64,000 nt of DNA. It comes from an uncultured cyanobacterium. GTDB taxonomy: Bacteria > Cyanobacteriota > Cyanobacteriia > PCC-9006 > JAAUQQ01. Below, piece by piece: positions 39,348 to 55,785 of the stretch (within the stretch, counting starts at the first letter, position 1; every line of letters starts with the position of its first letter). Below the pieces are notes generated by a model that did not search any database, was not told the origin of the DNA, and worked only from the letters and a program-made list of their open reading frames with translations. The position numbers were made by a program, and so were the translations under genes. Where the stretch lies: assembly GCA_963718615.1 (NCBI GenBank), contig OY970368.1, positions 5,888,001 through 5,952,000 on the forward strand. Reading direction: 5' to 3'.

Positions 39348-41393
39348 ATGAACTTTTTGCAGGATTTAGACCAGGTGGCGATCGCCCGCCAAAAGGCCGT
39401 AACTCATCTGGGCCAGATCATCCATCTTCTGAGCGAGTCTGAAACTGCCGAGCCAGGTCGATCGGGGGCGCTAGAGCTGAGCCAAGCGGTGGAAACCCTC
39501 AAAACCACCCGGCAAAACCTGGAAATGGGGGTGTTTCGGCTGTTGGTCCTGGGGGATCTGAAGCGGGGGAAAAGTACGCTGCTGAATGCCCTCTTGGGCG
39601 ATCGCCTCCTGCCCAGTGATGTGACGCCTTGCACGGCGGTCCTGACGGTGGTCAAGTATGGGCCGCAAAAGCAGGTGACGGTGTATTTTGTGGGCGATCG
39701 CCCCCCGCAAACCCTGAGTTTTGACGCCTTTCGCGAAACCTACACGATTTCCCCCGACGAAACCAAACGGCTGGAAGCGGAGCAACAATTGGCCTTTCCA
39801 CAGGTCAGCCATGCGGTCGTCGAGCATCCGCTGCCGCTGCTGCAATCGGGAATTGAGCTGATCGACACACCGGGGCTGAACGACACCGAAGCCCGCAATC
39901 GTCAGGTCTTGGACTATCTCAACAGTTGCCATGCAGTTCTGTTTGTGCTCAGCGCCTCCCAGCCCTGCACGCTAGAGGAGCGGCGGTATTTGCAAAACTA
40001 TTTGCTCAATCGGGGGTTGACGGTCTTTTTCCTAATCAATGGCTGGGACCGGATTCGGGACGGGTTGGTGGATCCAGAAGACGCCAATGCAGTTGCTGAG
40101 GCAGAAGCGAAGGTTCGACAGGTGTTTCAGGCCGGTTTGGGTGATGCGGTGACGACGGAGGCGTATGGCGATCGCGTCTTCGAAATTTCGGCGCTGCAAG
40201 CCCTGCGCCAGAAGCTCAAGCATCCCGAAGCAACCCTGGAAGGCACGGGACTGGATCGGTTTTTGGCGACGTTGGGGCAATATTTAGCTCGCGATCGCGC
40301 TCCAGCGGAACTCCAGCGCGTCCAAGCCCTGGCCCAGCAAACCCATCAGCGGGTGCGGGAGGCGATCGAACGGCGGATTCCCCTGTTGGAACAAAGCCAG
40401 ATGGAATTGGAGGCCAACATTGCGTCGATCCAGTCGGAATTTGACCAGTTGGCGGCAATTCGGGACCAGTTTGGCCAATTGATTCAGCGCACCCGAGAGG
40501 AACAGGCGGGGGCGATCGCCGAGTCATTTAAAACCTATATTCTCAAACTGGAACTGACGTTTGAAGAGGACTTTGTCGCCTCCCAGCCAGACCTAGAATT
40601 TCTGCAATTTATCCAAAAGGAAAATCGCGCTAAGTTTCACCGCCAGTTTCGCCAAGCCTTCGAACGCTACATGAACGATCGCCTGGTGGCCTGGGAATTC
40701 ATGGCAAAACAGAACCTCGGCAAAAGTTTTGATCAGCTCCAGGAAGAGGCTAAGGTCTATGCAGATGCCTATGCAAAAGTGATTGATGTCATGAATCAGA
40801 AGCTGTTGGGCGATCGCTTTACCCTCTTCGAGCAACAGTACAAGTCGGAGGAGGGACAGGCTTGGTTGGATGCGATCGCAGAGATTTTCGAAGCCCTGCC
40901 GGATCAGCTTAACCAAAGCATCCGGCCCTTCAATCAGTTTTGGCAGCAGGTCTTGCTCTATGCCTGTATCTACGCAGCGGTGAATATTGCCGTAATTTTA
41001 GTCGGTATTGTTTTCAGCAGTTTGTTCCTCAGCATTGTGGCGGCGTTAGCTGTAGGAGCAGGGGTTGTGGGAGCGCAGGCAGAAGTTGTGCGGCAAACTT
41101 TTCTTAAGAAAACCAAGGAAGAGTTCGTCAAATGTTTGCCTCAAATTGCCGATGAGCAACAGCCGCTGATTCGTCGTGCAGTCCAGCGATGCTTTGACAA
41201 CTACGAAGCGGAGGTGACAGAACGGATCAATGGCGACATTGGCCGACGCCGCGCCGAGCTCAACAATCTGCTCAAGCAAAAGGAATCGACAGCGGTGAAT
41301 CAGGGGCAAGAGGTTCAGCGATTGCGGCAGTTGGAGCAGAGCCTAACGGAGCAAGTGCAGCAGCTTGGACAGGTTATCCCCCAGACTGATTGA
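39348..41393 (+). CDS. Bacterial dynamin-like protein
   Basis: G1 GDLKRGKST, LLP...PCTAV, G3 DTPG, G4 NGWD; long helical stalk and hydrophobic paddle. Confidence 0.9.
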   Translation: MNFLQDLDQVAIARQKAVTHLGQIIHLLSESETAEPGRSGALELSQAVETLKTTRQNLEMGVFRLLVLGDLKRGKSTLLNALLGDRLLPSDVTPCTAVLTVVKYGPQKQVTVYFVGDRPPQTLSFDAFRETYTISPDETKRLEAEQQLAFPQVSHAVVEHPLPLLQSGIELIDTPGLNDTEARNRQVLDYLNSCHAVLFVLSASQPCTLEERRYLQNYLLNRGLTVFFLINGWDRIRDGLVDPEDANAVAEAEAKVRQVFQAGLGDAVTTEAYGDRVFEISALQALRQKLKHPEATLEGTGLDRFLATLGQYLARDRAPAELQRVQALAQQTHQRVREAIERRIPLLEQSQMELEANIASIQSEFDQLAAIRDQFGQLIQRTREEQAGAIAESFKTYILKLELTFEEDFVASQPDLEFLQFIQKENRAKFHRQFRQAFERYMNDRLVAWEFMAKQNLGKSFDQLQEEAKVYADAYAKVIDVMNQKLLGDRFTLFEQQYKSEEGQAWLDAIAEIFEALPDQLNQSIRPFNQFWQQVLLYACIYAAVNIAVILVGIVFSSLFLSIVAALAVGAGVVGAQAEVVRQTFLKKTKEEFVKCLPQIADEQQPLIRRAVQRCFDNYEAEVTERINGDIGRRRAELNNLLKQKESTAVNQGQEVQRLRQLEQSLTEQVQQLGQVIPQTD

Positions 41394-41434: not shown

Positions 41435-42169
41435 TTAGAGATCCTCAGGGCGAATGCCAAGTTCCAACAGCTTAGTCCGTAAACGAGCATTTTCTGTTTC
41501 TATGGTTTGTTGCGTTGCCGTCAAGGTCTGGTTTGCCTTGAGTAAGGCTTGATTGGCCTCGGATAGCTCGTCGGGGGTTAGGAGCTTTTCTCCGGTGTCC
41601 TCACGGTAAAACCGCAGCAAACCGTCTTCAACGACCAATCTTAACTGGAGGACTTCGCTGCGGCGATCGCCCACCACTTGGTAGCGCTCACCATCATGGC
41701 GGTAGCCCAACAAATGCTCCGCAATCCACTCCCCCTTGGGATCAAATTGCCAGTATTCTCGTACACCCAGTTGCTCATAAAGTAACTTTTTGAAGGTTTG
41801 ATCCTCATCCTGCGTTCCCTTCGAGGTGACTTCAAAAATAATGGCTGGGACTTCACCTTCCTCCCAAAGTTTGTAATGCTCCCGTCCACCAGGTAGCACA
41901 TCAAAAACCACCATGACATCTGGAGCTACACGCAATCTGGGGTAGCCTTGGGCATAGTAGAGAAATTGGTTGGAGAGGACGGTGCCGGGGTGATCCGGCG
42001 ATCGCGAAAACCGGCTCGATTCTGTGTTGAGATATTGTTTGAGAATCGAGAAGATCGTGATGATCGCCACTAAATGTACATAGGTCTCTGCCAACGGTTC
42101 ACCATCACTGCTGGGATAGACAATCTCAAGGGATTGGGGCGGCTGGGACTGAGCGCTCAGAATGGTCAT
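41435..42169 (-). CDS. Uma2 (DUF820) family endonuclease
   Basis: YPSSDGEPLAET..H, VAPDV, FEVTS, LGVREYWQFDP. Confidence 0.9.
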   Translation of the reverse strand: MTILSAQSQPPQSLEIVYPSSDGEPLAETYVHLVAIITIFSILKQYLNTESSRFSRSPDHPGTVLSNQFLYYAQGYPRLRVAPDVMVVFDVLPGGREHYKLWEEGEVPAIIFEVTSKGTQDEDQTFKKLLYEQLGVREYWQFDPKGEWIAEHLLGYRHDGERYQVVGDRRSEVLQLRLVVEDGLLRFYREDTGEKLLTPDELSEANQALLKANQTLTATQQTIETENARLRTKLLELGIRPEDL

Positions 42170-43721: not shown

Positions 43722-44468
43722 TTAGGCTTGCGATGCTTGACCGAAGCGCTCACGCCGTTTTTTGAGCACACTGACCCCAAAACCGATCAGCCCTGGTAGC
43801 AATGCCGGTGTTGGCACTGAGGTGGGAGGGACTGTTTGAATTTGGGCTGTGAATTGGGTGGAGTCACTCAGATCATTGCCTTCAGGGTTAATGGCAAAAT
43901 CCAAAACACTGCCGACTGCCAAGGTCTGCTGTAATGAGTAGTTAAAGACGGTGAAATTATTGGTGGCCTGCTCGTAGATCTTTGCGCCATCTAGAAAGAT
44001 ATAGCCGATGGTGCCGTCATTCGATTGCGAGTTGATGTCGCCAAAGCGTCCAGAGATCGTCACGTCGCCTGCAAAATCGCTGACCCAACGCCGCACGGCC
44101 CAATGGTTTTCTGTATCCGGGAATGTGGCGGGGTGACCCATGACATTGTTCAGCATCGTCCAAGTGTATTGGGTTGACGGGTCGTATTGAGTCTCATTAG
44201 GCTGATCGATGGTTTCTTCCCAGAACTGTCCGCTGTCAAAATATTTCATTTCCTGGAAAGTCGAGGTCGGGATCGAACTAAAGGCTGTTTGGTTTTTAGG
44301 GATTTCGTAGTAGCCGTAGTACCAGCCATCTTGACCCTGTTGATCTGAAAAATCTTGTACAGAATCTGCAATTACAGCTGCTTGCACAGACTGGGGTGGG
44401 AGGGCGATCGCCCCACAAAATAAGCCCATTGCCAGAGGAATTGTCCTAAACATGCTAAGCTTAACCAT
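43722..44468 (-). CDS. PTPA-CTERM (PEP-CTERM-type) sorted surface protein; ORF track start 44567
   Basis: Signal peptide ending QSVQAA; C-terminal VPTPALLPGLIGFGVSVLKKRR. Confidence 0.85.
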   Translation of the reverse strand: MVKLSMFRTIPLAMGLFCGAIALPPQSVQAAVIADSVQDFSDQQGQDGWYYGYYEIPKNQTAFSSIPTSTFQEMKYFDSGQFWEETIDQPNETQYDPSTQYTWTMLNNVMGHPATFPDTENHWAVRRWVSDFAGDVTISGRFGDINSQSNDGTIGYIFLDGAKIYEQATNNFTVFNYSLQQTLAVGSVLDFAINPEGNDLSDSTQFTAQIQTVPPTSVPTPALLPGLIGFGVSVLKKRRERFGQASQA

Positions 44469-44818
44469 AATATCCACCGACTTCAACACAGAGATACAAC
44501 AGGTGGTAGATTCTGATTTTGATCCTGACTTGGCCGCAATAGAGACGTGTGCGCAGATTGAGTTCACTGACTGTACTCAATATTACTTTTCCCAGAATGA
44601 ATCTAGCGATCGCACCTCTAGGGTTTATCAAAGTTTTATCGAACGAGCCAGAATTATCTCGATTCCTCGCGGTTCCTCCCCTAGGACTGTTACGTTTCGA
44701 TAGATTGCTTAATCTTGTAAGAGGTTTTAGGCCAATTGGCTACGCGCAATGGCTGAAGCTAGGAGGGAGAGGCTGGGGCGATCGCCTATGGGCTAGTCGT
44801 GAACGTCGTCTTTCTCGA

Positions 44819-45080
44819 TTAGCGGGTAACAATCTCTCCTCTCCACAGGTACTGGCTTAATTGCTGACCGACTCGGCGTTCTTCTTCTGGGTGCTTGGGT
44901 AATTGCCAGCGCAGGGCATCGTAGAGGAGATGACGGTAGAGGTCGAAGCTGGCTTCGAGGAGGTCGCTGTAGGTAGTGGTAGTGGCGATCGCCCAACGAT
45001 AGGCAAACAAGGCAGAAGATAATCCTAGTGGTATGACCAACAAATCTCAAGATTTGCCCCCCATGGCCCAAATTCCTCGG
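44819..45080 (-). pseudogene. Orphan 3' fragment paralogous to the C-terminus of the upstream membrane protein
   Basis: FAYRWAIA...YLWRG matches the upstream gene at 37/57 residues by manual alignment; in-frame TGA just before 45043. Confidence 0.75.
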
Positions 45081-45086
45081 AATCAG

Positions 45087-46098
45087 TCAGTTCAGATAGC
45101 TTATGAAGCCGGATTGTAGGTATCGGGTCAGGTCTTGACCCACTCGGCGTTCAATGGTTGGGTCGGGAGGGAGAGTCCAGCGGAGGGCTTGGTAGAGCAG
45201 GTGGCGATGGAGGTCGAAGGTGGCTTCGATTAGTTCGCCGTAGAGGCTGGCAGCGGCGATCGCCCAGCGGTAAGCAAACCAAGCTGAGAGTAGGCCCAGC
45301 AACAAAGGCCAGGTCGCTAAAGGCGTTTGGGCAAGGGCGGCCCAGCCGCAGAAGAGGAGGCTCCACAACCAGACGCGGACGGCAGTGTTGAGGTCGGCGC
45401 GGGCTTCTTGGAGGTCTTTTTTGACGGGGTCGGGCAGGAGCATCCAGAAGGCGAGACCAGCAAATGATGGCGTCGAGGCCATATTTGTGGAGGGGTTGGC
45501 GCTCGGCGGCGCGGAGCAGGTTGCCGAGGCGGGTGGGCATGAGGTCGGTGTTGGTTTGGGGCAGGGCTCGCAGTTCTTGCCGGATGCGGATTAGGGTTTG
45601 TTGTTGCTGGGGGGTGAGGAGGTGCTCGTTGAGTTGGAGATAGTCGGTGCGTTGGGCGGGGGTGAGCTGGGCTGCACCTTGGGTTTCGATGATCGTTTTT
45701 AGGGTTTGGAGTTTTGTGCGTTGTTGGGCTTCGAGGCTGCGGAGGGTTTGGCTGTCTTTGCTGAGTTGGGTTTTGCGATCGCGATACTGCCGAATTCGCC
45801 ATTGTTTAAGCGGACGGATCCAGAGGGGGCCGTAGCCTTCGAGGAAGCGCAGGGTGGCGAAGTCGAAGCGTTGGACAATGAAGGCGGAGGTGGCGATCGC
45901 GCAAAAGACACCGACAAGCAAGGCGGTTTGCAGGGGGTTGGGATATTGGCTGAATTGTGCGATGAGGGGTTTCCAGCCCCAGCGTTGCAGGATGGCGGCG
46001 AAGCCCCCGAGCCAGAAGACAAAGGCGGGGGTGAGTAGGGTGGCGACCCATTGTTCGGCGAGTTTACCGCCAAAGCTTTCGAGGACTTTTGCGGTCAT
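45087..46098 (-). pseudogene. Multi-TM protein (~336 aa reconstructed), split by a +1 frameshift near 45448
   Basis: Minus strand TGG TCT CGC CTT C TGG ATG CTC; removing one base joins ...KYGLDAIICWSRL to WMLLPDPVKKDL... (ORFs 45151-46098 and 45087-45482). Confidence 0.8.
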
Positions 46099-46107
46099 GG
46101 ATGCACC

Positions 46108-46503
46108 TTAGGACTGGGCGGGAACGAGGGGAACGAGATGGGTGGGGCAGAGAGGGATGGGCTCATTCCCTTCCCGATACCAAGTGTAGTCATCGCCGAT
46201 CGGGCAAACATATTTCGTTGCAGGTTGGAGTGCTTCGTTGCCAGCGAGACGAGAATCGCCGAGGGAACGTGTAATCTGGTCTGGATTTTCCCCCTTGAGA
46301 TAGCGCTTCATCCAGGCTCGGGTGGACTCGAATTGCCGCAGTTCTTCGGTTATTAAAAGTTCAACTGATTGTCCAGGTTTTGTTTGGGTGAGTAGGATTT
46401 GTAATCGTTGATCAACCTGTTCCGCAGTTGCCGAGTCGAGTAATGTTGACAGCTCAGAACGAATCGCATGGGCAGCGTCAGTGATGGTTCTGGGTTGAGT
46501 CAT
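46108..46503 (-). CDS. Small helical protein with C-terminal putative Zn-binding motif
   Basis: YVCPIGDDYTWYREGNEPIPLCPTH; 9 nt upstream of the membrane gene start. Confidence 0.75.
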   Translation of the reverse strand: MTQPRTITDAAHAIRSELSTLLDSATAEQVDQRLQILLTQTKPGQSVELLITEELRQFESTRAWMKRYLKGENPDQITRSLGDSRLAGNEALQPATKYVCPIGDDYTWYREGNEPIPLCPTHLVPLVPAQS

Positions 46504-46557
46504 GTTGGGTTACCTGGGGTGCAAAGGATGGCTCAGGGGCAGGCAGATTCGATCAGG

Positions 46558-46983
46558 TTATTGCCAGGGGTTGAGCAGGCTTAGTCCCGTGGTGCTGAAG
46601 TCTGATACGTTACGGGTTACAAGGATTATTCTATGCCGTAGGGCGACAGCGGCGATGAGAGAGTCCATTACCGCCATGGGGGTTCCTTGCTGTCGTTGTT
46701 GGGCTGTCATCTGTCCCCAAATTAAAAATACGTCGCTATCTAGGGGCAGAATTCGGTTGGCAAATTGATGAAAGAGGGATTCGTTGAGCCAGATCTCTAG
46801 CTCGGTGCGTCGATTGGATGGGGGGCGGTTATTGATGCCGAACTGGATTTCGCCAATGGTGACAGCACTGAGGAAGACTTGCTCCGGATCTGTGCGGTTG
46901 AGCCAATCGATGACTTTGGGTTCGGGCTGGGGTTTGACGAATTCGGAAATGACGCAGGTATCGAGGAGGTATTGCAGGGTCAT
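46558..46983 (-). CDS. vapC: VapC-type PIN domain toxin
   Basis: YLLDTCVISE, SAVTIGEI, DSLIAAVA, LVTRNVSDF, NPW. Confidence 0.92.
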   Translation of the reverse strand: MTLQYLLDTCVISEFVKPQPEPKVIDWLNRTDPEQVFLSAVTIGEIQFGINNRPPSNRRTELEIWLNESLFHQFANRILPLDSDVFLIWGQMTAQQRQQGTPMAVMDSLIAAVALRHRIILVTRNVSDFSTTGLSLLNPWQ

Positions 46984-47231
46984 AGCTCAATCGGACGGAG
47001 GCTGGTGCTGGGATTGCGGTCCAGGTTTAGTCCACTATCGCGCAGCGGGGAAGCGAGGAAGAAGTCTCCGAGGCGCTGTTGGGGGGCGGTGAGTTTTTTG
47101 TATTTGGCGAAGGGCATGACCACGGCGATTTCGACGCCATGGCGGGTGATGATTTGGGGGCCTTCGGAGAGTGCCCGATCGATTAGCTCAGAGAGTTTGT
47201 TTTTGGCTTCTTGGAGTTGCCAGGAGGTCAT
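46980..47231 (-). CDS. Phd/YefM family antitoxin
   Basis: WQLQEAKNKLSELIDRA..EGPQIITRHG; 4-nt overlap with the toxin. Confidence 0.92.
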   Translation of the reverse strand: MTSWQLQEAKNKLSELIDRALSEGPQIITRHGVEIAVVMPFAKYKKLTAPQQRLGDFFLASPLRDSGLNLDRNPSTSLRPIEL

Positions 47232-47305
47232 GGTGGTTGGGAGATTCCAGCTAGACTGTCTAGATTATAGTCGGAGCTGTTCGGGTTTTGGGGGGACGGG
47301 AGGGG

Positions 47306-50300
47306 CTAGATGCCGGTGTAGCTGAAGGCTGCCCAGTGGAAGGGGTGGGCGTAGGTGCGATCGCTGGGGTCTTCCCAGGCGAGTTTGTTGTAGAGGTCGC
47401 GGGCGATCGCCTCTGGGAGGCCGAGGAAGCGATCGCGGGGGGCTTGGGGAGGAGGGCTGTCGGGGAATTCTGGGAGTACGGCTTTTAGTGCCTGGATTTT
47501 TTCAGCGTTGGTGGTGTCGCGGAGCCAGATTTGGGCTTGGCGCAGGGCTTGGTCGGGTTCAAGCTGGTGGCTGCGCCAGAGGTCGTAGAATTTGGTGAGC
47601 AGGAGCATGGTGCTGAGGTCGCTGACGGCCCAGAGGGAGGCGATGACGGCGGCGACTCCGGCTTGGAGGAGGCCGGTGGGGAGGCTGATGGCTTCGTCGG
47701 CGTTTTCGGTGCCGATCATGCCGGTTTCGCAGGCGGAGAGGATGGCGAGGCGGAGGCCGCTGTTGCCCTTTTCGGTATCGGCGAGGTTGAGGGCGAAGAT
47801 GTCTTTGAGGGTGAGGAGGCCGTCGCTCATGAGCAGGCCGCTTTGGAGGGGTTCGCGCAGGTTGGCGGTGCCGTGGCAGGCGAAGTGGGCGATCGCCACG
47901 TTGGTCAGTTGCGATCGCACCTGTTCTACGGTGGCTTGGTCATGACGAAGGACGGTGGAATTCTGGAAGGTGGCGATCGCGGCTTGTACTTCGCGTTCTG
48001 AGCTAGGCAGGTCTTGTTTGGGGTTGTCGATGGCTAGGATCGAATTAGCCTGGACGCGATCGGCAATGGCTTTTGCGGCGGTAAGGGATTTGGCGTTGGG
48101 GGCGTAGGTGATCTGGAGGTGGTCGAGGGCGTAGCGGCGGCCTGTGGGTTGGGTTTTGTCTGGGGTCCAGGCGGCGTGGAGGGGGAGGAGGCTGATGTAG
48201 CCGGTGGGGATGAGGGTGGTGCGATCGAATCCGAGGTCTTTGAGCTGCTGAACCATTGGCCCGATTAGGGGTTCCCAGATTTGCTGGGTGATGGCGTCGA
48301 TTATGTTGTGCCAGGTTTGGCGATCGTTGCTGGCGTTGTTGTAGGCGGCGAACCAGGTTTGGATGAGGTCGGTGAGTTGGGTGTCGGTGAAGTCGTTGAG
48401 CCAGATTGGATAGATGTCGTTGGGGGTGACGACGAGGGCGAGGCTGCCTGCGGGGGTGGTGAGGAGGTAGGTGAGGGGGGTGTCTGGGGTGACGGCTTTT
48501 TGAACGTCTTCGAGTGTGGGGAGGGTGAGGAAGGTTTCGTAGCCGGGTTGTTGGCGGATTTGGTCGATGGTTTCGGTGAGTTCTTGGCGGAGGCGGGTGG
48601 CTTCGTTGCGGAGGGTTTCGGGGGTGATGCTGTGGCGATCGACGCTGGTCATGCGATCGCGCTGTTGGGCTTCGAGGTTGCGGAGTTGTTGGGTGATGGT
48701 TTGGTATTGAATGTAGGGATCTGGAGCTAGAGTTTGCAGTTGGGTGAGGTTGGCGCGATCGCGATCGAGGCTTTCACTGAGTCCACGGGCGCGACCTTGC
48801 TCTAGGGCGAGGACGGCTTTGGATAAATTTCTTGTGCGAGCGAAGGCATAGGCGGCACGGTGGGGAAGATTGGCGGTCTCGGATAGTGAGGCAGATTTGC
48901 TGTCGAGGAGGGTGGCGCTTTGATAGAGACTTTCTGCGGCGGTAAGTGCTTGGTCATAAATAGGAACGGCTTCTGACCAGCGTTGCTGATCGCTGTAGAG
49001 ATTGGCTAGACTGCGAGCGGTTATTCGACATTCATAGGAGAATCGTGTTGGTTCAAAGATGGTCAGGCTAGCGCAGTAATTGGCGATTGCTTGTTCAATA
49101 TTCTTCGCACGATCGCCTTCGATGCGGAAATAGTATGCAACTGCCAGATTCATGGTGGTTTGTGCCCACTCGAACGGCATGGCGGTTTGCGTCCTCACGG
49201 TCAAGGCTCGCTTATATGCGGCGATCATTTGTTCAATGTTCTCGGCGTGATCGCCTTCGATTCGGGAATAGTATGCACTTGCCAGGCCCATGGTGGTTTG
49301 TGCCCACTCGATCGGCATCGCCGCTTCCGTCCTCACCGTCAAGGCTTGCTCGTAGGCTTTGATCGCCTGTTCGATATTCTCCGCGCGATCGCCTTTAATA
49401 CGGTCAGCGTATGAATTTGCCAGGTTCATGGTGGCTTGTGCCCACTCGAACGGCATGGCGGTTTGCGTCATCACCAACAAGGCTTGCTCGTAGTAGGCAA
49501 TTGCTTGTTCAATATTCTTGGCGCGATCGCCTTTGATGCGTTGTTTGTATACAGCTGCCAGATTCATGGTGGTTTCTGCCCACTCGATCGGCATGGCCGC
49601 TTCCGTCCTCACGGTCAAGGCTTGCCCGTAGGCTTTGATCGCCTGTTCGATATTCTCCGCGCGATCGCCTTTAATACGGTCAGCGTATGAATTTGCCAGG
49701 TTCATGGTGGCTTGTGCCCACTCGAACGGCATGGCGGTTTGCGTCATCACCAACAAGGCTTGCTCATGGAAGGCGATCGCTCGTTCAATATTCTCGGCGC
49801 GATCACCTTTAATGCGGTTATTGTATGCAAGTGCCAGATTCATGGTGGTTCGTGCCCACTCAATCGGCATGGCGGTTCGTGTCATCACGGTCAATGCTTG
49901 CTGGTAGAAGGCGATCGCTTGTTCAATATTCTCGGTGCGATCGCCTTTAATGCGGTTATTGTATGCAAGTGCCAGATTCATGGTGGTTCGTGCCCAATCG
50001 AACGGCATGGCGGTTTGCGTCGTCACCAACAAGGCTTGCTCGTAGAAAGCGATCGCTCGTTCAATGTTCTTGGAGCGATCGCCTTTGATGCGGTTATTGT
50101 ATACATTTGCCAGACCCATGGTGGTTTGTGCCCATTCGATCGGCATTGCGGTTTGCGTCCTCACCCTCAATGCTTGCTCGTAGAAGGCGATCGCTTGTTC
50201 CATATTCTCGGAGCGATCGCCTTTGATGCGGTTCTTGTATGCGGTTGCCAAGTTATTGGTGGTTTGTGCCCACTCGATCGGCATTGCGGTTTGCGTCATC

Positions 50301-51403
50301 ACCGTCAAGGCTTGCTCGTAGAAGGCGATCGCTTGTTCAATGTTCTTGGAGCGATCGCCTTTGATGCGGTCAGAGTATGCAGTTGCCAGACCCATGGTGG
50401 TTTGTGCCCACTCGATCGGCATCGCCGCTTCCGTCATCACCGTCAAGGCTTGCTCGTAAGCTTTGATCGCTCGTTCCATATTCTCGGCTCGATCGCCTTT
50501 GATGCGTTCATAGTATGCGGTTGCCAAGTTATTTGTGGTGGTGGCCCACTTGATCGGCATCGCCGCTTCCGTCCTCACTGTCAAGGCTTGCTCGTAGGCT
50601 TTGATCGCTTGTTCCATATTCTCGGCACGATCACCTTTGATTCGGTTCTTGTATGCGGTTGCCAAGCTAATGGTGGTTTGTGCCCAATCGATCGGCATCG
50701 CCGCTTGCGTCCTCACCGTCAAGACTTGCTCGTAGGCTTTGATCGCCTGTTCGATATTCTCCGCCCGATCGCCTTTGATGCGGAAATAGTATGCGATTGC
50801 CAAGTTCATGGTGCTTTGTGCCCACATTGGCGGATTTGCTGTCTGGGTTCTAACCGACAAAACAACCGCACACCCGGCCAGGGCGATTTCGATATTATTA
50901 GCCCGACTCCCCAATGGAAAATTCTGGAAATGGATGCTGATATTTTCAACTAGAGCTGCTATTGCTTCGGCTGTCTCTGCGTCAGCAAACTCAAGCACAG
51001 CCTTAGCCCAAGTCTGCAATGTTTGAGCCAATCCTAGATGCAGTTTGGTTTGATTGGCCGCTAAAATGGAGTGCACAGCCTGTTGGCCCGTCCCAAAATT
51101 CTCCAATTCAGCCTTGAAAATTGCCATCAATAATGGCATCAGCGCCGCTTCATCCAAATTATCTGCATTCGTTGATTTCACTAATCCCAACCCTTGCGCC
51201 AACTGCCCCGCAAATTGCCGCAGCCTTCCCGCATTACCTTCACCTTGACTCTCCATCCAGTCAGCATATTGCCCCATCACCGCCACCAGCCCCTCATCCA
51301 CCAACCCCGCATTCGCCTCAAGCAGCGCCGCCTCTTCCCCCTGAGCACAGCCCAGCAGTTGCTCAATCAACCGCGCGTAGGCATTCAATCGTTCCTCACC
51401 CAT
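47306..51403 (-). CDS. TPR-repeat CHAT (caspase-like) protease
   Basis: 13 tandem 46-aa TPR-like repeats; CHAT dyad intact (IAHFACHG, ILSACETG); ASLWAVSD; PFHWAAF. Confidence 0.93.
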   Translation of the reverse strand: MGEERLNAYARLIEQLLGCAQGEEAALLEANAGLVDEGLVAVMGQYADWMESQGEGNAGRLRQFAGQLAQGLGLVKSTNADNLDEAALMPLLMAIFKAELENFGTGQQAVHSILAANQTKLHLGLAQTLQTWAKAVLEFADAETAEAIAALVENISIHFQNFPLGSRANNIEIALAGCAVVLSVRTQTANPPMWAQSTMNLAIAYYFRIKGDRAENIEQAIKAYEQVLTVRTQAAMPIDWAQTTISLATAYKNRIKGDRAENMEQAIKAYEQALTVRTEAAMPIKWATTTNNLATAYYERIKGDRAENMERAIKAYEQALTVMTEAAMPIEWAQTTMGLATAYSDRIKGDRSKNIEQAIAFYEQALTVMTQTAMPIEWAQTTNNLATAYKNRIKGDRSENMEQAIAFYEQALRVRTQTAMPIEWAQTTMGLANVYNNRIKGDRSKNIERAIAFYEQALLVTTQTAMPFDWARTTMNLALAYNNRIKGDRTENIEQAIAFYQQALTVMTRTAMPIEWARTTMNLALAYNNRIKGDRAENIERAIAFHEQALLVMTQTAMPFEWAQATMNLANSYADRIKGDRAENIEQAIKAYGQALTVRTEAAMPIEWAETTMNLAAVYKQRIKGDRAKNIEQAIAYYEQALLVMTQTAMPFEWAQATMNLANSYADRIKGDRAENIEQAIKAYEQALTVRTEAAMPIEWAQTTMGLASAYYSRIEGDHAENIEQMIAAYKRALTVRTQTAMPFEWAQTTMNLAVAYYFRIEGDRAKNIEQAIANYCASLTIFEPTRFSYECRITARSLANLYSDQQRWSEAVPIYDQALTAAESLYQSATLLDSKSASLSETANLPHRAAYAFARTRNLSKAVLALEQGRARGLSESLDRDRANLTQLQTLAPDPYIQYQTITQQLRNLEAQQRDRMTSVDRHSITPETLRNEATRLRQELTETIDQIRQQPGYETFLTLPTLEDVQKAVTPDTPLTYLLTTPAGSLALVVTPNDIYPIWLNDFTDTQLTDLIQTWFAAYNNASNDRQTWHNIIDAITQQIWEPLIGPMVQQLKDLGFDRTTLIPTGYISLLPLHAAWTPDKTQPTGRRYALDHLQITYAPNAKSLTAAKAIADRVQANSILAIDNPKQDLPSSEREVQAAIATFQNSTVLRHDQATVEQVRSQLTNVAIAHFACHGTANLREPLQSGLLMSDGLLTLKDIFALNLADTEKGNSGLRLAILSACETGMIGTENADEAISLPTGLLQAGVAAVIASLWAVSDLSTMLLLTKFYDLWRSHQLEPDQALRQAQIWLRDTTNAEKIQALKAVLPEFPDSPPPQAPRDRFLGLPEAIARDLYNKLAWEDPSDRTYAHPFHWAAFSYTGI
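49060..50830 (-). repeat. Intragenic tandem array of ~138-bp units (13 copies, approximate boundaries)
   Basis: RI(K/E)GD(R/H) recurs every 46 aa; GATCGCCTTC at 49111 and 49249 are 138 bp apart. Confidence 0.92.
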
Positions 51404-51621
51404 GGTGGCAGCCGCTCCGTAATCGATATCTGTGCCATTGATATCTCTATATTTACCTACGGCAAACGGCTAAATCAGTGATCTTACGCATAAAACATAT
51501 TTCAGCCCGCTTCCATCAAGCCCCCATCAACCCCGCAGAGCATCACCCCATAGCCCCCAAATGACTATCTACCTCCAAAAACCACCTCCGCACCCAACTC
51601 AAGCGAGAACCACACCTCTAC

Positions 51622-52215
51622 CTACAACACCTCACTCAAATCCACCACCAATCCCGGCAATACATCCTCACCACTGAGTTGACCAGGAGAGACCTGCACC
51701 TCCGCAGTAGCTTCACCCACACGATAAATCTCCACAGTTTTCTGTTGGGGATTCACCAACCAACCCAAACGCACACCATTCTCACGATACTCCTGCATCT
51801 TCGCCTGCAAAGTTGTCAAACTATCACTTTTGGACCGCAACTCAATCACAAAATCCGGAACGATCGCCGGAAAAGTCACCGCTGCTGACAGCCCAGCCAG
51901 CTTCTCTTGGGCAATCCAAGTAACATCAGGCGATCGCACTGCTCCAGAAGGCAACACAAACCCGCCCGAAGAATCAAAAACCTCACCCAACCGACTTTGT
52001 AAATTCCACTGGTACACCTGTGAAGCAAGATTAATATTTTTTTTCGAGCTTTCCCAACCGACAGGTGGCATAGTCACCAATTCTCCGTTAGCCGTCAACT
52101 CAAAATTTAGGTCTGGATTATCTAGGCAAATCTGCTGGAATTCAGCAAGAGTCAACCGCAGCGTAACATTGCGGATATCAATGAGTAGCGGTTGAGATGT
52201 CTCTAGAACCTGCAT
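51622..52215 (-). CDS. Uma2 (DUF820) family endonuclease
   Basis: ELTANGELVTMPP, FDSSGGF.LP.GA.RSPD, PDFVIELRS, GVRLGWLVNP. Confidence 0.92.
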   Translation of the reverse strand: MQVLETSQPLLIDIRNVTLRLTLAEFQQICLDNPDLNFELTANGELVTMPPVGWESSKKNINLASQVYQWNLQSRLGEVFDSSGGFVLPSGAVRSPDVTWIAQEKLAGLSAAVTFPAIVPDFVIELRSKSDSLTTLQAKMQEYRENGVRLGWLVNPQQKTVEIYRVGEATAEVQVSPGQLSGEDVLPGLVVDLSEVL

Positions 52216-52319
52216 AGACTACCTCGAAGCATATCTATCTCCTATTGTAAGTGACAGACACGAGATCAACCCATGCAAATGGAAGCGCTTTTCATCAGTC
52301 TCGATCGCCTTTGACACAG

Positions 52320-52553
52320 TCAGAGCATCCATTTACCCGTATTCAAAACAATGTCACTCATCAACGACAAATGCCTCGTCTCCCGTCGCCACTGAGCAGC
52401 CAATTGCTCGAATCGTTGGGATAAATCTGACGAAGCGTCCAAGGTAGCCGGAAACTCCAGCAATCGCTCTTGCAAAACCTCAGCAGGCGATCGCCCACCT
52501 TCAGCGAGGCGCGCCAACAGCTCATCCGGAATCTCTAAGCTAATCTGTGCCAT
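52320..52553 (-). pseudogene. Short antitoxin-like ORF, apparently chimeric or truncated
   Basis: MAQISLEIPDELLARL N-terminus; RFEQLAAQWRRETRHLS segment ends abruptly. Confidence 0.4.
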
Positions 52554-52671
52554 CGGTTTCTGGCCCATAGAGTCTCCGTCTCAGTGTAGCTTACAGGCTA
52601 ATGGAAGGGGGGAGGTCGCCCACTCCCAGCACCGAAGGTCTTGCTTCACTGCATTTATCAACATTGTCAAT

Positions 52672-52746
52672 CAGCGCCAATTCCAATCCGTCCAAACTCA
52701 CTTGGATAACCTTGATCGCGATACAGCTACACCGAAATGAGGAGAC
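52672..52746 (+). repeat. 75-bp imperfect direct repeat, copy 1
   Basis: 68/75 identical to 54471-54545 by manual comparison. Confidence 0.9.
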
Positions 52747-52752
52747 AAATCG

Positions 52753-52947
52753 ATGAACTCAAACGTCAAGTTTCAGGCGCAGATTCAGAGCATGAAAGCC
52801 CAGATTGAAGCGATGCGAGCCGAAACTGAAGCCTCTGCCAAGCAGCATGACGACTGGGTTGCCCAGCAAAATCAACGGCAGTCCAAATCCATACTGGCCC
52901 GCATCGTCCACAGCGTCCTGGTTGCACTGAAACTCATGGCCTCGTGA
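52753..52947 (+). CDS. Hypothetical 64-aa protein
   Basis: GAGGAG RBS supplied by the end of repeat copy 1; coiled-coil-like sequence. Confidence 0.55.
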   Translation: MNSNVKFQAQIQSMKAQIEAMRAETEASAKQHDDWVAQQNQRQSKSILARIVHSVLVALKLMAS

Positions 52948-53110
52948 GCGATCGCCTCCTCGCCACCTTCGGCACCAGGGAAGACGATCGCCTTCACCCA
53001 GCTCCAGAGGATCGCCCCGTCGAAACCAGCATCAACGACATCTAAAAAGCCATCTCTGACAGCGTTACAATTAAATCTCCCCCTCAACTCTCACCTAAGG
53101 AGGCGTAGCG

Positions 53111-53473
53111 ATGACCATCCAAGACACCGCCATCGAAAAACTCCGCCACCTTCCCGACCCCCTCGCCCAACTGGTCAACGACTTCATCGACATCCTCCTC
53201 AACCAGTGGGCCAAACTCCCCCAATACCGATCCCATCAGACCCCGCTCACGCCAGCCTCTACCTTTACCGCACTAGCTCCAGATCCCCAAACCGCCTGGG
53301 ATAGCGCCATGGCCCAAATCGCCAACCCCGACCCCAATCAACATGCCGCAGTCACCCATCTCTTCGCGACTTGGGCCACAGAAAACGACGCAGCAGAACA
53401 ACAACAAACTCTCCAATGGCTCACCCGAGCCCTAGACGAAGATCGCCTCTCCGATTGCCCCCTCTTCCCATGA
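53111..53473 (+). CDS. Antitoxin-like protein (DUF2281-like N-terminus)
   Basis: AGGAGG RBS; MTIQDTAIEKLRHLPDPLAQLVNDFIDIL; C-terminal EQQQTLQWL..ALDEDRLS..PLFP; ATGA overlap with the next ORF. Confidence 0.6.
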   Translation: MTIQDTAIEKLRHLPDPLAQLVNDFIDILLNQWAKLPQYRSHQTPLTPASTFTALAPDPQTAWDSAMAQIANPDPNQHAAVTHLFATWATENDAAEQQQTLQWLTRALDEDRLSDCPLFP

Positions 53474-53583
53474 GTCGTATCGTTCTATTCGTCAAAAATA
53501 ACGGTCACGAAGTCATTGTCGCGACCTCCAATGTCGGCCATCTCACCCGATTTATTGCAGCCGCAGACTGGCAGGCCATTTAG
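53470..53583 (+). pseudogene. PIN-like toxin remnant with large in-frame internal deletion (37 aa)
   Basis: MSRIVLF joined directly to EVIVATSNVGHLTRFIAAADWQAI, which resemble the two ends of a PIN-type protein. Confidence 0.65.
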
Positions 53584-53651
53584 GAAATTGAGCGTTAAAC
53601 CGATGTGCTACGAGCGATCCTAATTTCCACCTTTATTAAATCAATAACGCC

Positions 53652-53930
53652 ATGCCTCCGATCCAACTCCTAGACATCGCAACGACCCTCAAACCCATCC
53701 CTGCCCAAAAACTAACCCTCGTAGAACCCGAGCATCAATCCATCGCCAGCCTTCCCACCGGACAAGTGGGCACAATCGTTGAAATCTATCCCACCGAACA
53801 ATCCTCTACCGATCAACCTAAATATCTGATCGAATTTGCCGACACCCAAGGCCGCGAATACGCCATGGTCATCCTGCGCGCCGATGAGATCCTCGTCCTG
53901 CACTACGAGCTAGCCGTCGCCGCAGGCTGA
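53652..53930 (+). CDS. DUF4926 family protein
   Basis: LPTGQVGTIVEIY...YLIEFADTQGREYA. Confidence 0.8.
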   Translation: MPPIQLLDIATTLKPIPAQKLTLVEPEHQSIASLPTGQVGTIVEIYPTEQSSTDQPKYLIEFADTQGREYAMVILRADEILVLHYELAVAAG

Positions 53931-54142
53931 AGCAACGCCAAAATTGGCAAACTCAACGGTTGCTGCCCCACCCGCTTAGAAAAAAACAAAATTTCCAACA
54001 TCTCAATATTGCCCGACTCCGGATTCACCCGAGCCAACACCTCATCCGCCAACTCCTCCATTTCCTGCTCAGCATAGCTAGAACAAAGCTGAATCGTCAG
54101 AATATCGCCCACCGGGTCATAACAGAACGTCAAATTTCCCAT
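53903..54142 (-). CDS. DUF2283 family protein
   Basis: LTFCYDPVGDILTI...EELADEVLARVNPESGNIEMLEIL; GGAGG before ATG at 54142. Confidence 0.75.
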   Translation of the reverse strand: MGNLTFCYDPVGDILTIQLCSSYAEQEMEELADEVLARVNPESGNIEMLEILFFSKRVGQQPLSLPILALLQPAATASS

Positions 54143-54567: not shown

Positions 54568-55785
54568 CTAGGCAATACTGCCCCGCTTCCGTGCTTCCTT
54601 GTAGGATGTGCCCACATTCTTCAACCCTGCTTTGACCATTTGCCGTTCCAGCATGCCGAAAAAGCGCTGGCGATCGCCCCCCCGCACCACCGCCTGATTA
54701 TGGGCCTCCGCCAACGCCACCGGATAGCCATAGCCCTTCTGCACCTGCCCCAGCATTAAACTCAACGCCGAATCGAGAAACGCTGGATCCCTCGCCACCC
54801 AAGCGGGAACCTCCACCCGCGCAATTTCGCTGCCCACATGGACATAGCAAAAATAAACCGTTTGCTGGGGACCATAGTCCGCCAAAACCTTCGCCGAGCT
54901 GCGCCAGAGCGGTCCCCGTTCTCCCGGCTCTAAATAGCTTGACCAAAGCGTCACATCCCGCAAGGCAGACAGGGTTTGGCAAGGCGCAGCATCGATTTTG
55001 CCCCCACAGTGCGTCTCGCAATCAGGATAGTTGTAAGGACAAGTCTGAAGTCGCAGAAAATTGAGCGATTCGGTGCTGCGCGAGGCGCTAATGTAGCTCA
55101 GGAGTGGGATCTTTTGGTGCTGCAACTGTTCCCAGGCCGTGAGAATGGGAGGAAGAATGCGATCGCGCGCCTCCCCCGGCAATCCCTCCAAAAACCAATA
55201 AATCAACGACCCATCCACCATCGCCAATATCGGTGCAACCCCGTAGGGACGAACCGCCGTTCGTCCAGATTCTGCCGTTTGTCCCAGCCCTTGCCCCAAC
55301 TCCGCCAGAATTTCGATTTCCGAAACCGTCCGTCGATACCCCATCCATTCCTCCGTGCGAATCCCCCAGGGTCGCGATTCGTAGAGATCTTCCGGTTGAT
55401 AGACAATTTCCGGCAAACTATCGAGCTGGGGATGGCGACTTTGGCCATAGTGGAGGACAACGCGACCAATATTGATCAGATAACAATAGGCAATTTCGTG
55501 GTGGCTGGGGGCAATTTGGGAACCGTCCGTGGCGAGGATCGTGTGTTGAGGGGGGGGAGGGGCGATCGCCACCCGTGTTTCCAACGGTTCCATCGGTTCA
55601 GCGGCAGTGAAGGCAAGGCGATCGCCCCAGTCCAGGAGCTTTTGGGCTAACTCTGCTTGCTGGGGTTGGGCTTGGGCGACCAACCGCCGGGCACGTTCCA
55701 GGCGCTTTTGACTAGCGATCGCCTCCTGGGCCAAATGATCACTAATCCCCTGCATTTGTCGGGCCAACTGAGTGAGGTCTAGCAT
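54568..55785 (-). CDS. nurA: NurA domain nuclease
   Basis: ATDGSQIAP, AMVDGSL, GYGYPVALAEAHNQAVV. Confidence 0.85.
   Translation of the reverse strand: MLDLTQLARQMQGISDHLAQEAIASQKRLERARRLVAQAQPQQAELAQKLLDWGDRLAFTAAEPMEPLETRVAIAPPPPQHTILATDGSQIAPSHHEIAYCYLINIGRVVLHYGQSRHPQLDSLPEIVYQPEDLYESRPWGIRTEEWMGYRRTVSEIEILAELGQGLGQTAESGRTAVRPYGVAPILAMVDGSLIYWFLEGLPGEARDRILPPILTAWEQLQHQKIPLLSYISASRSTESLNFLRLQTCPYNYPDCETHCGGKIDAAPCQTLSALRDVTLWSSYLEPGERGPLWRSSAKVLADYGPQQTVYFCYVHVGSEIARVEVPAWVARDPAFLDSALSLMLGQVQKGYGYPVALAEAHNQAVVRGGDRQRFFGMLERQMVKAGLKNVGTSYKEARKRGSIA

What the first reader, a model, noticed from the sequence alone, without database searches (positions are those of the whole stretch)
44819..51403. 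Candidate caspase-triggered membrane-effector system: TPR-CHAT + small Zn-motif protein + multi-TM protein
Seen: co-oriented intact-dyad TPR-CHAT, a 131-aa protein (helical part, linker ITRSLGDSRLAG, then CP...W.R....P.CPTH) and, 9 nt later, a ~336-aa multi-TM protein with a soluble PTRLGNLLRAAE..P..KYGLD loop. Established: CHAT/caspase-like proteases with repeat sensors activate neighbouring substrates in bacterial immunity (gasdermin loci, Csx29-Csx30, CATRA-type systems). The two partner genes do not match any such named component that I recognise. Inference: TPRs sense a ligand, the protease cuts the small protein or the TM protein, and the membrane effector causes abortive death or signalling.
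Basis: partly seen in the sequence, partly recalled or inferred. Interest (0 to 1): 0.78.

Follow-up and report, generated by a model that had tools for sequence, protein, structure and literature searches.

The report
Caspase-like protease with two unnamed partners
A caspase-like protease gene sits beside a small zinc-ribbon-type protein gene and a four-helix membrane protein gene, a trio that recurs across several bacterial phyla and looks like an undescribed protease-triggered membrane cell-death or immunity module, although the copy in this genome appears to be broken.

Summary
The genes exist as described, with amendments. The 4-TM gene is broken by a one-base insertion near 45449 and is followed by a 74-codon copy of its own 3' end.

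In 80 loci fetched with the TM protein, the small gene lies directly upstream in 76. A same-strand clan-CD protease lies within 3.6 kb in 66 (32 of 34 loci with 5 kb or more on both sides). The protease is either TPR-CHAT or, in a nested clade, a Peptidase_C14-NB-ARC/WD40 protein. All 42 pair-linked CHAT domains form one clade that excludes 31 other CHATs of this genome.

Neither partner matches Pfam (including CATASP), PADLOC, NCBIfam or any solved fold.

Best reading (0.5): a protease-gated membrane effector module, analogous to gasdermin and EACC1 systems but built from new parts. Cleavage, toxicity and defence are all untested.

The parts
47306..51403 (-). TPR-CHAT protease gene, 1365 aa, cytoplasmic (no signal peptide, no N-terminal TM segment)
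   Evidence: ORF. Pfam CHAT 2.1e-56 plus TPR_10 and TPR_12. Member of the pair-linked CHAT clade.
49082..50825 (-). TPR repeat array inside the CHAT gene: 138-nt period, 12.6 copies, 82% matches
   Evidence: protein repeats are visible
47318..48292 (-). CHAT catalytic domain (residues 1038-1362), with His1177 (codon 47875-47873) and Cys1225 (codon 47731-47729)
   Evidence: coordinates computed from the ORF start
46980..47231 (-). Phd/YefM-type antitoxin, 83 aa. Probably an insertion into the module, not a core part.
   Evidence: Pfam PF02604, 63.1 bits against a cut-off of 29.8. Absent at this position in most related loci.
46558..46983 (-). PIN-domain (VapC-type) toxin, 141 aa. Overlaps the antitoxin gene by 4 nt.
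   Evidence: Pfam PF01850, 55.5 bits against a cut-off of 23.6; coordinates
46108..46503 (-). Small partner protein, 131 aa: five-helix N-domain (about residues 1-86), a low-confidence linker with invariant Gly88 and a conserved basic residue, and a C-terminal zinc-ribbon-like hairpin domain (C100, C119, H122)
   Evidence: No Pfam, PADLOC or NCBIfam match.
45087..46098 (-). 4-TM partner gene (intact homologues 290-340 aa), split here by a one-base insertion at about 45449 into frames 46098..45151 and 45482..45087
44819..45043 (-). 74-codon remnant copy of the TM gene's 3' end (last TM helix plus C-terminal helix)

Best explanation
The locus is one copy of a conserved three-gene conflict module. 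Its parts are:
- a cytoplasmic clan-CD protease carrying its own repeat sensor. This is TPR-CHAT here; in a nested clade it is a Peptidase_C14-NB-ARC/WD40 protein;
- a small soluble protein made of a helical domain, a flexible linker and a zinc-ribbon-like domain;
- an inner-membrane protein with 2+2 TM helices and a large cytosolic domain that includes an antiparallel coiled-coil hairpin.

Proposed mechanism (inferred): the repeat or NTPase sensor detects an invader or stress signal and switches on the protease. The protease cuts the small protein in its conserved linker. Candidate sites are the conserved [K/R]-[G/S/N]-[F/Y/L] or the invariant L-x-G. It may instead cut the cytosolic part of the TM protein. 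The cut releases the TM protein to disrupt membrane integrity or membrane potential, giving growth arrest or death of the infected cell.

Shown: gene content, conserved adjacency, swapping of protease families, a dedicated CHAT subfamily and patchy cross-phylum spread. Not shown: sensing, cleavage, binding, toxicity or defence.

In this genome the module has a VapBC pair inserted, and the TM gene carries a frameshift and a 3' remnant. It is probably inactive, unless the frameshift is an assembly error.
For: 1. Pair. The small gene is upstream on the same strand in 76 of 80 loci. In 67 of those 76 the called ORFs lie 60 nt or less apart or overlap.
2. Protease linkage. A same-strand CHAT or C14 protease lies within 3.6 kb in 66 of 80 loci: CHAT upstream 45, CHAT downstream 2, C14 upstream 5, C14 downstream 18, both kinds 2. 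Among loci with 5 kb or more on both sides the figure is 32 of 34. Pfam confirms CHAT in 43 of 43 and Peptidase_C14 in 23 of 26 of the two large neighbour clusters.
3. Two different clan-CD families serve the same pair. The TM tree needs at least 3 CHAT/C14 changes.
4. All 42 pair-linked CHAT domains fall in one clade (SH-aLRT 99) that excludes 31 other CHATs of this genome.
5. The trio persists outside cyanobacteria: 8 of 9 loci from Pseudomonadota, Chloroflexota and Acidobacteriota have a protease.
6. Distribution is sporadic, as for accessory genes: 8 of 41 relatives and 7 of 301 phylum genomes, both counts including the window's own genome.
7. The linker of the small protein is predicted disordered (pLDDT below 50 at residues 86-91). 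It holds the only invariant linker residue, G88, and a conserved basic residue in both CHAT-linked and C14-linked sets.
8. P0171 fuses the small protein's N-domain to a CHAT domain (hhalign probability 96.7%, E 3.5e-10; CHAT at residues 367-581).
9. The same two protease families, with TPR, WD40 or NACHT add-ons, flank bacterial gasdermins (passages read). Other small or membrane effectors are licensed by such proteases in Evans et al. 2025 (abstract and sections 4 and 9 read).
Against: - No experiment and no structural match assigns a pore or toxin function to the TM protein. Foldseek found nothing at E 0.001 or better. The wide VIA search gave only generic coiled-coil matches, Z up to 8.6.
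- Fourteen of 80 loci show no protease. Most are cut by contig ends, but L056 has full flanks and none, and the TM gene in L049 is in pieces.
- The main C14 clade also contains C14 proteins of this genome that are not next to the pair, so that protease subfamily is not exclusive to it.
- Three linked C14 domains (L069, L079, L080) fall outside the main clade. L079's lies 2.5 kb away and may be incidental.
- The P1 preference of this CHAT subfamily is unknown, so the proposed cut site is a guess.
- Neighbouring genes are mostly housekeeping or small selfish genes, not recognised defence islands.
- The local copy is frameshifted.
Confidence: 0.5

Rival explanations
1. The order of action is reversed. 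The membrane protein is a sensor or anchor, for example of membrane damage or phage genome entry, and the small protein is an adaptor. Together they recruit or activate the protease, which is itself the effector and degrades cellular or phage proteins.
For: - TPR and WD40 repeats bind proteins, so the small protein could be their ligand.
- The small protein's N-domain is found fused directly to a CHAT domain in P0171, as expected for a recruitment domain.
- Kaur et al. 2020 proposed a sensor role for the membrane-associated EACC1 (passage read).
Against: - The same paper series later showed EACC1 to be the cleaved effector, not the sensor (section 9 read).
- NB-ARC/WD40 and TPR proteases already carry their own sensor modules.
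- The pair is the constant part while sensor architectures vary, which also fits a constant effector.
Confidence: 0.2
2. The trio is a housekeeping or developmental regulatory-proteolysis circuit rather than immunity. It would be comparable to the CHAT protease HetF acting on PatU3 in Anabaena, with the membrane protein as a channel, division or envelope factor tuned through cleavage of the small regulator.
For: - HetF/PatU3 shows that cyanobacterial CHAT proteases have non-immune substrates (abstracts seen in the listing).
- Flanking genes are often housekeeping.
- No PADLOC model matches the two partners.
Against: - Occurrence is sporadic: 7 of 301 sampled phylum genomes and 8 of 41 relatives.
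- The module is spread across phyla.
- The TM gene is found in pieces in L045, L049 and L084, in relative genome G003 and in the window.
- Toxin-antitoxin and Uma2 genes are repeatedly inserted into the module.
- A STAND-type NB-ARC/WD40 protease partner is typical of conflict systems.
Confidence: 0.12
3. The adjacency is inherited synteny or chance in CHAT-rich genomes, and the protease has no functional tie to the pair.
For: This genome alone holds 50 CHAT and 12 C14 matches. Many loci come from related Nostocales and Leptolyngbya-like genomes.
Against: - Pair-linked CHATs form one clade that excludes 31 other CHATs of this genome.
- Linkage survives in three other phyla.
- Linkage survives a change of protease family and of position, upstream versus downstream.
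- Expected chance adjacency is about 4% against 66 of 80 observed (my arithmetic).
Confidence: 0.03

Closest known systems
Bacterial gasdermin operons (bGSDM plus a caspase-like C14 or CHAT protease, often with TPR/LRR/WD40/NACHT)
   Same: The same two protease families with the same kinds of sensor add-ons sit next to a membrane-acting partner (Johnson et al. preprint, passages read). The expected logic is the same: the protease licenses a membrane effector.
   Different: The partner here is not a gasdermin. It is an integral, all-helical 4-TM protein plus a separate small soluble protein. There is no Pfam or fold match, and any inhibition would act in trans rather than through a C-terminal peptide.
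EACC1-caspase two-gene system (Kaur et al. 2020; Evans et al. 2025)
   Same: A small constant gene lies 5' of a protein with an N-terminal caspase domain and variable sensor regions. The system is enriched in multicellular bacteria. EACC1 is cut by its protease and then permeabilises membranes.
   Different: EACC1 is a single protein of about 13 kDa with one conserved TM helix. Here the small protein has no hydrophobic segment (maximum 19-residue hydropathy 0.49), and a second gene encodes the 4-TM protein. Most copies use TPR-CHAT, not an N-terminal caspase.
CATRA / CATASP (CATRA-associated small protein; Burroughs and Aravind 2020, not readable here)
   Same: A small protein is genomically tied to a caspase-type protease with TPRs. 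The CHAT protein gives a weak, sub-threshold TPR-S match (24.8 bits against a cut-off of 27.6).
   Different: The Pfam CATASP model (PF20271) matches neither the small protein nor anything in this genome. What I know of CATRA beyond the name is recalled, not read.
Type III-E CRISPR Craspase: Csx29 (TPR-CHAT) cutting Csx30
   Same: A TPR-CHAT protease cuts a partner protein in a linker to release a regulatory fragment. The CHAT domain gives a weak hit to the NCBIfam Csx29 model (66.4 bits).
   Different: The score is far below the Csx29 cut-off of 300 bits. No Cas genes appear among the neighbours scanned. There is no sigma factor, and the partner proteins are unrelated.
VapBC-type type II toxin-antitoxin pair
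   Same: The two inserted genes are an ordinary Phd/YefM antitoxin plus a PIN toxin with a 4-nt overlap.
   Different: They are not part of the conserved trio. Other loci carry different small inserts at the same spot: MNT/HepT, PIN, or DUF4160 with DUF29.

Membership tests
Bacterial gasdermin system | Effector with the gasdermin fold or family | tested here: not met
   No Pfam family for the TM or the small protein. The TM model is all-helical with 4 TM segments.
Bacterial gasdermin system | Adjacent caspase-like (C14/CHAT) protease, often with repeat or NTPase sensor domains | tested here: met
Bacterial gasdermin system | Proteolytic removal of an inhibitory segment activates membrane permeabilisation | not testable with these tools
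   Needs cleavage and liposome or toxicity assays.
CATRA / CATASP | Small partner belongs to Pfam CATASP (PF20271) | tested here: not met
   No CATASP hit for the small protein or for homologues, even at E up to 1. No hit anywhere in the genome; the 14 control genomes did not ring either, so that genome scan is weak evidence.
CATRA / CATASP | Protease carries a TPR-S sensor scaffold | tested here: inconclusive
   PF20308 TPR-S scores 24.8 bits, below the cut-off of 27.6, in the window protein. 8 of 43 homologues match at E 0.001 or better.
EACC1-caspase system | Small partner with a single conserved TM helix (Kaur et al. 2020, passage read) | tested here: not met
   The small protein's maximum 19-residue hydropathy is 0.49. 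The model shows soluble helices and hairpins.
Type III-E Craspase (Csx29/Csx30) | Protease meets the NCBIfam Csx29 model | tested here: not met
   NF041237 scores 66.4 bits against a cut-off of 300.
Type III-E Craspase (Csx29/Csx30) | Association with gRAMP/Cas7-11 and a CRISPR array | tested here: inconclusive
   No Cas family among 18 neighbouring ORFs scanned. No dedicated CRISPR search was run.
CHAT protease (Pfam PF12770, clan CD) | CHAT domain above the gathering score, with the His/Cys dyad | tested here: met
   191.9 bits against a cut-off of 24. His1177 and Cys1225 contexts are intact.
Type II toxin-antitoxin (Phd/YefM with PIN/VapC) | Adjacent small antitoxin and PIN toxin genes, both above their Pfam cut-offs | tested here: met
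   63.1 bits against 29.8 and 55.5 bits against 23.6; 4-nt overlap.
Known anti-phage systems in PADLOC-DB v2 | Partner proteins match a PADLOC model | tested here: not met
   No credible hit for the small or the TM protein. The only hit is LmuA at E 0.0056 and 13 bits, which I treat as noise.

The most novel reading that the evidence does not exclude
The 4-TM protein is a new family of alpha-helical, already membrane-embedded death effectors. A separate small zinc-ribbon protein holds it in check. A clan-CD sensor-protease fires it by cutting that small subunit's linker. This would be two-component, in-trans licensing, unlike the in-cis autoinhibition of gasdermin, EACC1 and Pepco. The module has moved between CHAT and caspase/STAND sensors and across at least four phyla.
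Probability: 0.3. Interest if true: 0.8.

Novelty: new variant of a known kind. Interest (0 to 1): 0.62.

Why it matters
Protease-licensed effectors are emerging as a main logic of bacterial immunity and as the prokaryotic counterpart of caspase/gasdermin signalling. The catalogue I could read lists ten such modules (Evans et al. 2025), and none fits this pair.

The small protein family is large: 782 representatives at 50% identity with E 0.001 or better. Both partner families lack any annotation.

If the model holds, it adds a new effector type: an integral helical membrane protein with a detachable regulator. It would also give a defined substrate for the very numerous but functionally opaque cyanobacterial TPR-CHAT proteins, of which this genome alone has 50 matches. 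The prediction is directly testable with three genes.

Tried and rejected
- Complex prediction of the small protein with the TM protein (alignments A7 and A6): score 0.24, below the mark of 0.32, so no verdict. I do not use it either way.
- Fold searches. For the small-protein model, Foldseek against PDB gave nothing at E 0.001 or better. The wide VIA search gave a best Z of 6.1, with CARD chains only at Z 4.2 among noise. For the TM model, Foldseek gave nothing and the wide VIA search gave only generic coiled-coil hairpins, Z up to 8.6.
- Profile searches against PDB sequences gave nothing below E 0.6.
- The Atlas search found only unnamed clusters. Two, commonest in Actinomycetota, have TM-scores of 0.72-0.78. 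I did not follow them up.
- Sequencing runs: no run holds more than 0.13 of the sampled words and no RNA holder is listed. The frameshift and expression could therefore not be checked, and read laying was not used.
- Earlier findings of this scan: nothing at this place or with this sequence. The word search returned other CHAT/sigma-factor modules unrelated to this pair.
- Literature, 7 searches. They found no description of a small zinc-ribbon plus 4-TM pair next to CHAT or caspase genes. Burroughs and Aravind 2020 (J Bacteriol) and Nicastro et al. 2023 (NAR) are not held. Supplementary tables of the Kaur et al. papers were not opened. Any of these could already list the module.
- BASS/Bell amyloid signalling was rejected. 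The partner NLR-type proteins start directly with the caspase domain, and no shared terminal motif was seen.
- An anti-sigma (ZAS) role was rejected. No sigma factor recurs among the neighbour clusters.

Full report
WHAT IS THERE

On the minus strand the window encodes the following, in order.
- A 1365-aa TPR-CHAT protein, 51403..47306. Pfam CHAT E 2.1e-56 at residues 1038-1362, plus TPR_10 and TPR_12.
- An 83-aa Phd/YefM antitoxin, 47231..46980.
- A 141-aa PIN (VapC-type) toxin, 46983..46558, overlapping the antitoxin gene by 4 nt.
- A 131-aa protein with no family match, 46503..46108.
- Nine nucleotides later, a membrane-protein gene starting at 46098.

The CHAT protein has no signal peptide. 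Its catalytic contexts FACHG (His1177) and SACETG (Cys1225) are intact. Its TPR region is a 138-nt repeat array of 12.6 copies, 49082-50825.

The membrane-protein gene is broken. Frame one (46098..45151) matches intact homologues up to '...KYGLDAIICWSRL'. Frame two (45482..45087) continues with 'WMLLPDPVKK...' to the normal C-terminus. Aligned with two relatives, the window has one extra base at about 45449. Downstream, 45043..44819 encodes a 74-residue copy of the protein's last TM helix and C-terminal helix. It is 78.7% identical over 108 nt to the gene's own 3' end.

No public run holds enough of this stretch to check the frameshift on reads. The genome is a single 6.10-Mb contig and holds one copy each of the small and TM genes.

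THE TWO PARTNERS

Neither protein matches Pfam, PADLOC or NCBIfam. Intact homologues of both were scanned against all three libraries, against Pfam at E up to 1, and gave nothing credible.

The small protein:
- 50 homologues in the 90%-clustered collection, all 'hypothetical' apart from one source label, and mostly cyanobacterial.
- 782 representatives at E 0.001 or better in the 50%-clustered library, 389 at 1e-10 or better. Nearly all are stand-alone proteins of 125-140 aa.
- Its model (pLDDT 79.8) has five helices (residues 7-86), a low-confidence linker (86-91) and small hairpins (96-125).
- Invariant residues are A10, L18, L38, W64, G88, Y98, C100, C119 and H122.
- Across 77 family members many carry CPxC...CxxH. 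The window's branch has lost the second Cys.
- The linker keeps a basic residue followed by G/S/N and an aromatic or Leu, then L-[P/A]-G. This holds in both CHAT-linked and C14-linked sets.
- It has no hydrophobic segment.

The TM protein:
- 376 homologues at E 0.001 or better.
- Its model, built from the intact homologue P0051 with 109 aligned sequences, is confident (pLDDT 90, pTM 0.82) and all-helical.
- TM helices lie at about 17-38, 55-77, 240-258 and 263-285.
- A long antiparallel coiled-coil hairpin spans 95-177. Its length varies between homologues.
- Conserved cytosolic segments are LMPTRLGN..RAAE and KYGLDAIICW.RLW.
- Fold searches found only generic coiled coils.
- The Atlas lists unnamed structural relatives, commonest in Actinomycetota.

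LINKAGE TEST

A scan of one genome per species with the TM alignment matched 161 stretches. Of these, 105 encode relatives and the best 80 were kept as loci.

The small gene is upstream on the same strand in 76 of 80 loci. The four without it are L030, L057, L070 and L078; L057 and L070 are cut at the contig end. In 67 of the 76 the ORFs are 60 nt or less apart or overlap.

Clustering all neighbours within 8 kb gave only two large recurrent clusters.
- One lies upstream on the same strand. It is TPR-CHAT: 43 of 43 members match Pfam CHAT.
- The other lies mostly downstream. It is a Peptidase_C14 caspase domain followed by NB-ARC-type NTPase and WD40 or other repeats. 23 of 26 members match C14 and 14 of 26 match WD40.

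With domain HMMs built from these clusters, a same-strand protease lies within 3.6 kb of the TM gene in 66 of 80 loci: CHAT upstream 45, CHAT downstream 2, C14 upstream 5, C14 downstream 18, both kinds 2. Among loci with 5 kb or more on both sides the figure is 32 of 34. The 14 without a protease are mostly contig-edge cases. L056 has full flanks and none, and the TM gene of L049 is in pieces.

Other recurrent neighbours are unrelated: histidine kinases, ABC transporters and glycosyltransferases.

Small selfish genes are inserted inside the module in several loci:
- MNT/HepT in L045, and by cluster membership in L071 and L075;
- PIN in L076, and by cluster membership upstream of the CHAT gene in L061 and L063;
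- DUF4160 with DUF29 in L061;
- Uma2 between the small and TM genes in L018, and by cluster membership in L017, L019, L020, L023 and L025.

The window's VapBC pair is one more such insert.

IS THE LINKAGE MORE THAN SYNTENY OR CHANCE?

This genome has 50 CHAT and 12 Peptidase_C14 matches, so chance adjacency is not negligible. I estimate about 4% per gene.

CHAT tree. It holds 77 CHAT domains:
- 32 near-full-length domains of the 50 own-genome matches (18 partial or weak ones were left out);
- 41 pair-linked domains from the loci;
- 4 other domains from the loci.
All 42 pair-linked domains, including the window's, fall in one clade of 44 (SH-aLRT 99, stem 1.07). The two extras are second CHAT genes further upstream in L036 and L080. 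None of the 31 other own-genome CHATs falls inside.

TM tree. It holds 75 TM proteins; five loci with ORFs under 270 aa were left out. CHAT linkage is spread over the whole tree. C14 linkage is concentrated in one nested clade of 28. At least 3 CHAT/C14 changes are needed.

C14 tree. This picture is less clean. 20 of 23 linked C14 domains sit in one clade (SH-aLRT 99), which also holds three unlinked C14 proteins of this genome. L069, L079 and L080 fall elsewhere.

Taxonomy. 66 loci are Cyanobacteriota, 4 Pseudomonadota, 4 Chloroflexota, 1 Acidobacteriota and 5 unnamed. Eight of the nine non-cyanobacterial loci keep a protease.

Occurrence is sporadic: 8 of 41 related genomes, and 7 of 301 sampled genomes of the phylum at E 1e-10 or better, with at most 7 candidates scored per genome. 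Both counts include the window's own genome.

A FUSION

A 606-aa metagenomic protein (P0171) carries the small protein's N-terminal helical domain at residues 1-73 (hhalign probability 96.7%, E 3.5e-10). It also carries a CHAT domain at 367-581. This ties the helical domain physically to a CHAT protease in at least one lineage. Its gene context could not be fetched.

HOW IT MOST LIKELY WORKS

The constant pair, the interchangeable sensor-proteases, the disordered conserved linker and the cytosolic exposure of most of the TM protein fit the logic now established for other systems. Caspase-like C14 or CHAT proteases with TPR, WD40 or NACHT sit next to bacterial gasdermins (passages read). Proteases cut EACC1, Pepco, MBL and alpha/beta-hydrolase partners to unleash them (Evans et al. 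2025: abstract, sections 4 and 9, and passages).

I therefore favour, at 0.5, a protease-gated membrane effector in which the small protein is the cleaved regulator of the 4-TM protein. The reverse order (the pair as sensor or anchor, the protease as effector) gets 0.2. A non-immune regulatory circuit gets 0.12. Meaningless adjacency gets 0.03. Every mechanistic step beyond the gene linkage is inference.

COMPARISON WITH THE KNOWN

The module works like gasdermin or EACC1 systems but is a member of neither.
- The effector has no gasdermin fold.
- The small protein has no EACC1-type TM helix (EACC1 description read).
- It is not CATASP by the Pfam model.
- The protease is far below the Csx29 cut-off.

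Seven literature searches found no description of this pair. Two key computational papers were not available, and supplementary tables were not opened. Prior cataloguing therefore cannot be excluded.

VERDICT

The proposed linkage is strongly supported at family level. The partners are unannotated families. The local copy is probably decayed, with the toxin-antitoxin insertion, the frameshift and the 3' remnant. I rate it a new variant of a known kind, interest 0.62.

Noticed in passing
window 44819-45043 (-): A 74-codon remnant of the TM gene's 3' end lies just downstream of the gene. It is 78.7% identical over 108 nt to the gene's own 3' end, and in protein it is closer to the C-terminus of homologue P0051 than the gene's own end is. 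This suggests a past replacement or partial duplication of the gene's 3' part.
   Followed up: partly
window 44001-54000: Strong GC skew: +0.21 to +0.31 over 44-50 kb and -0.20 to -0.25 over 50-54 kb. The sign change falls inside the CHAT gene near 50 kb. No cause established.
   Followed up: no
whole genome G000; window about 17194-18111 (-) and 26340-27131 (+): The genome holds 50 CHAT and 12 Peptidase_C14 matches. Two further CHAT genes lie in this window, and a C14 gene lies just upstream of it (G000 5886053-5886706). None of these has the small/TM pair.
   Followed up: partly
loci L017-L020, L023, L025 (between the small and TM genes); L045, L071, L075, L076, L061, L063 (between the CHAT and small genes): Small selfish genes (Uma2, MNT/HepT, PIN, DUF4160 with DUF29) are repeatedly inserted inside the module, as the Phd/VapC pair is here. 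The intergenic spots of this module seem to be favoured landing sites.
   Followed up: partly
L080:8538-9968 (also protein P0254) and L012:8407-9234: Variant small proteins. In a Thiomargarita locus the small-protein domain sits at the C-terminus of a 476-aa protein with a ParA/MinD-like P-loop N-terminus. In Elainella the ORF is 275 aa and scores as if it held two tandem copies.
   Followed up: no
G003:C251:3187-4188 (L086); L045, L049, L084: The TM gene appears in several frames or pieces in other genomes too. Either it decays recurrently or these are low-coverage assembly errors (L045's contig has about 3.7x coverage by its title).
   Followed up: no
window 35545-37101 (+), 39348-41393 (+), 54568-55785 (-), 41435-42169 (-), 51622-52215 (-): Other conflict-type or notable genes nearby: a STAND (NB-ARC/nSTAND1) NTPase, a bacterial dynamin-like protein, a NurA-domain protein and two Uma2 genes.
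   Followed up: no
own genome C14 genes at G000 5034048, 2743449 and 3513080: Three Peptidase_C14 proteins of this genome belong to the same clade as the pair-linked C14 proteases of other genomes but are not next to the pair. Their own partners were not examined.
   Followed up: no
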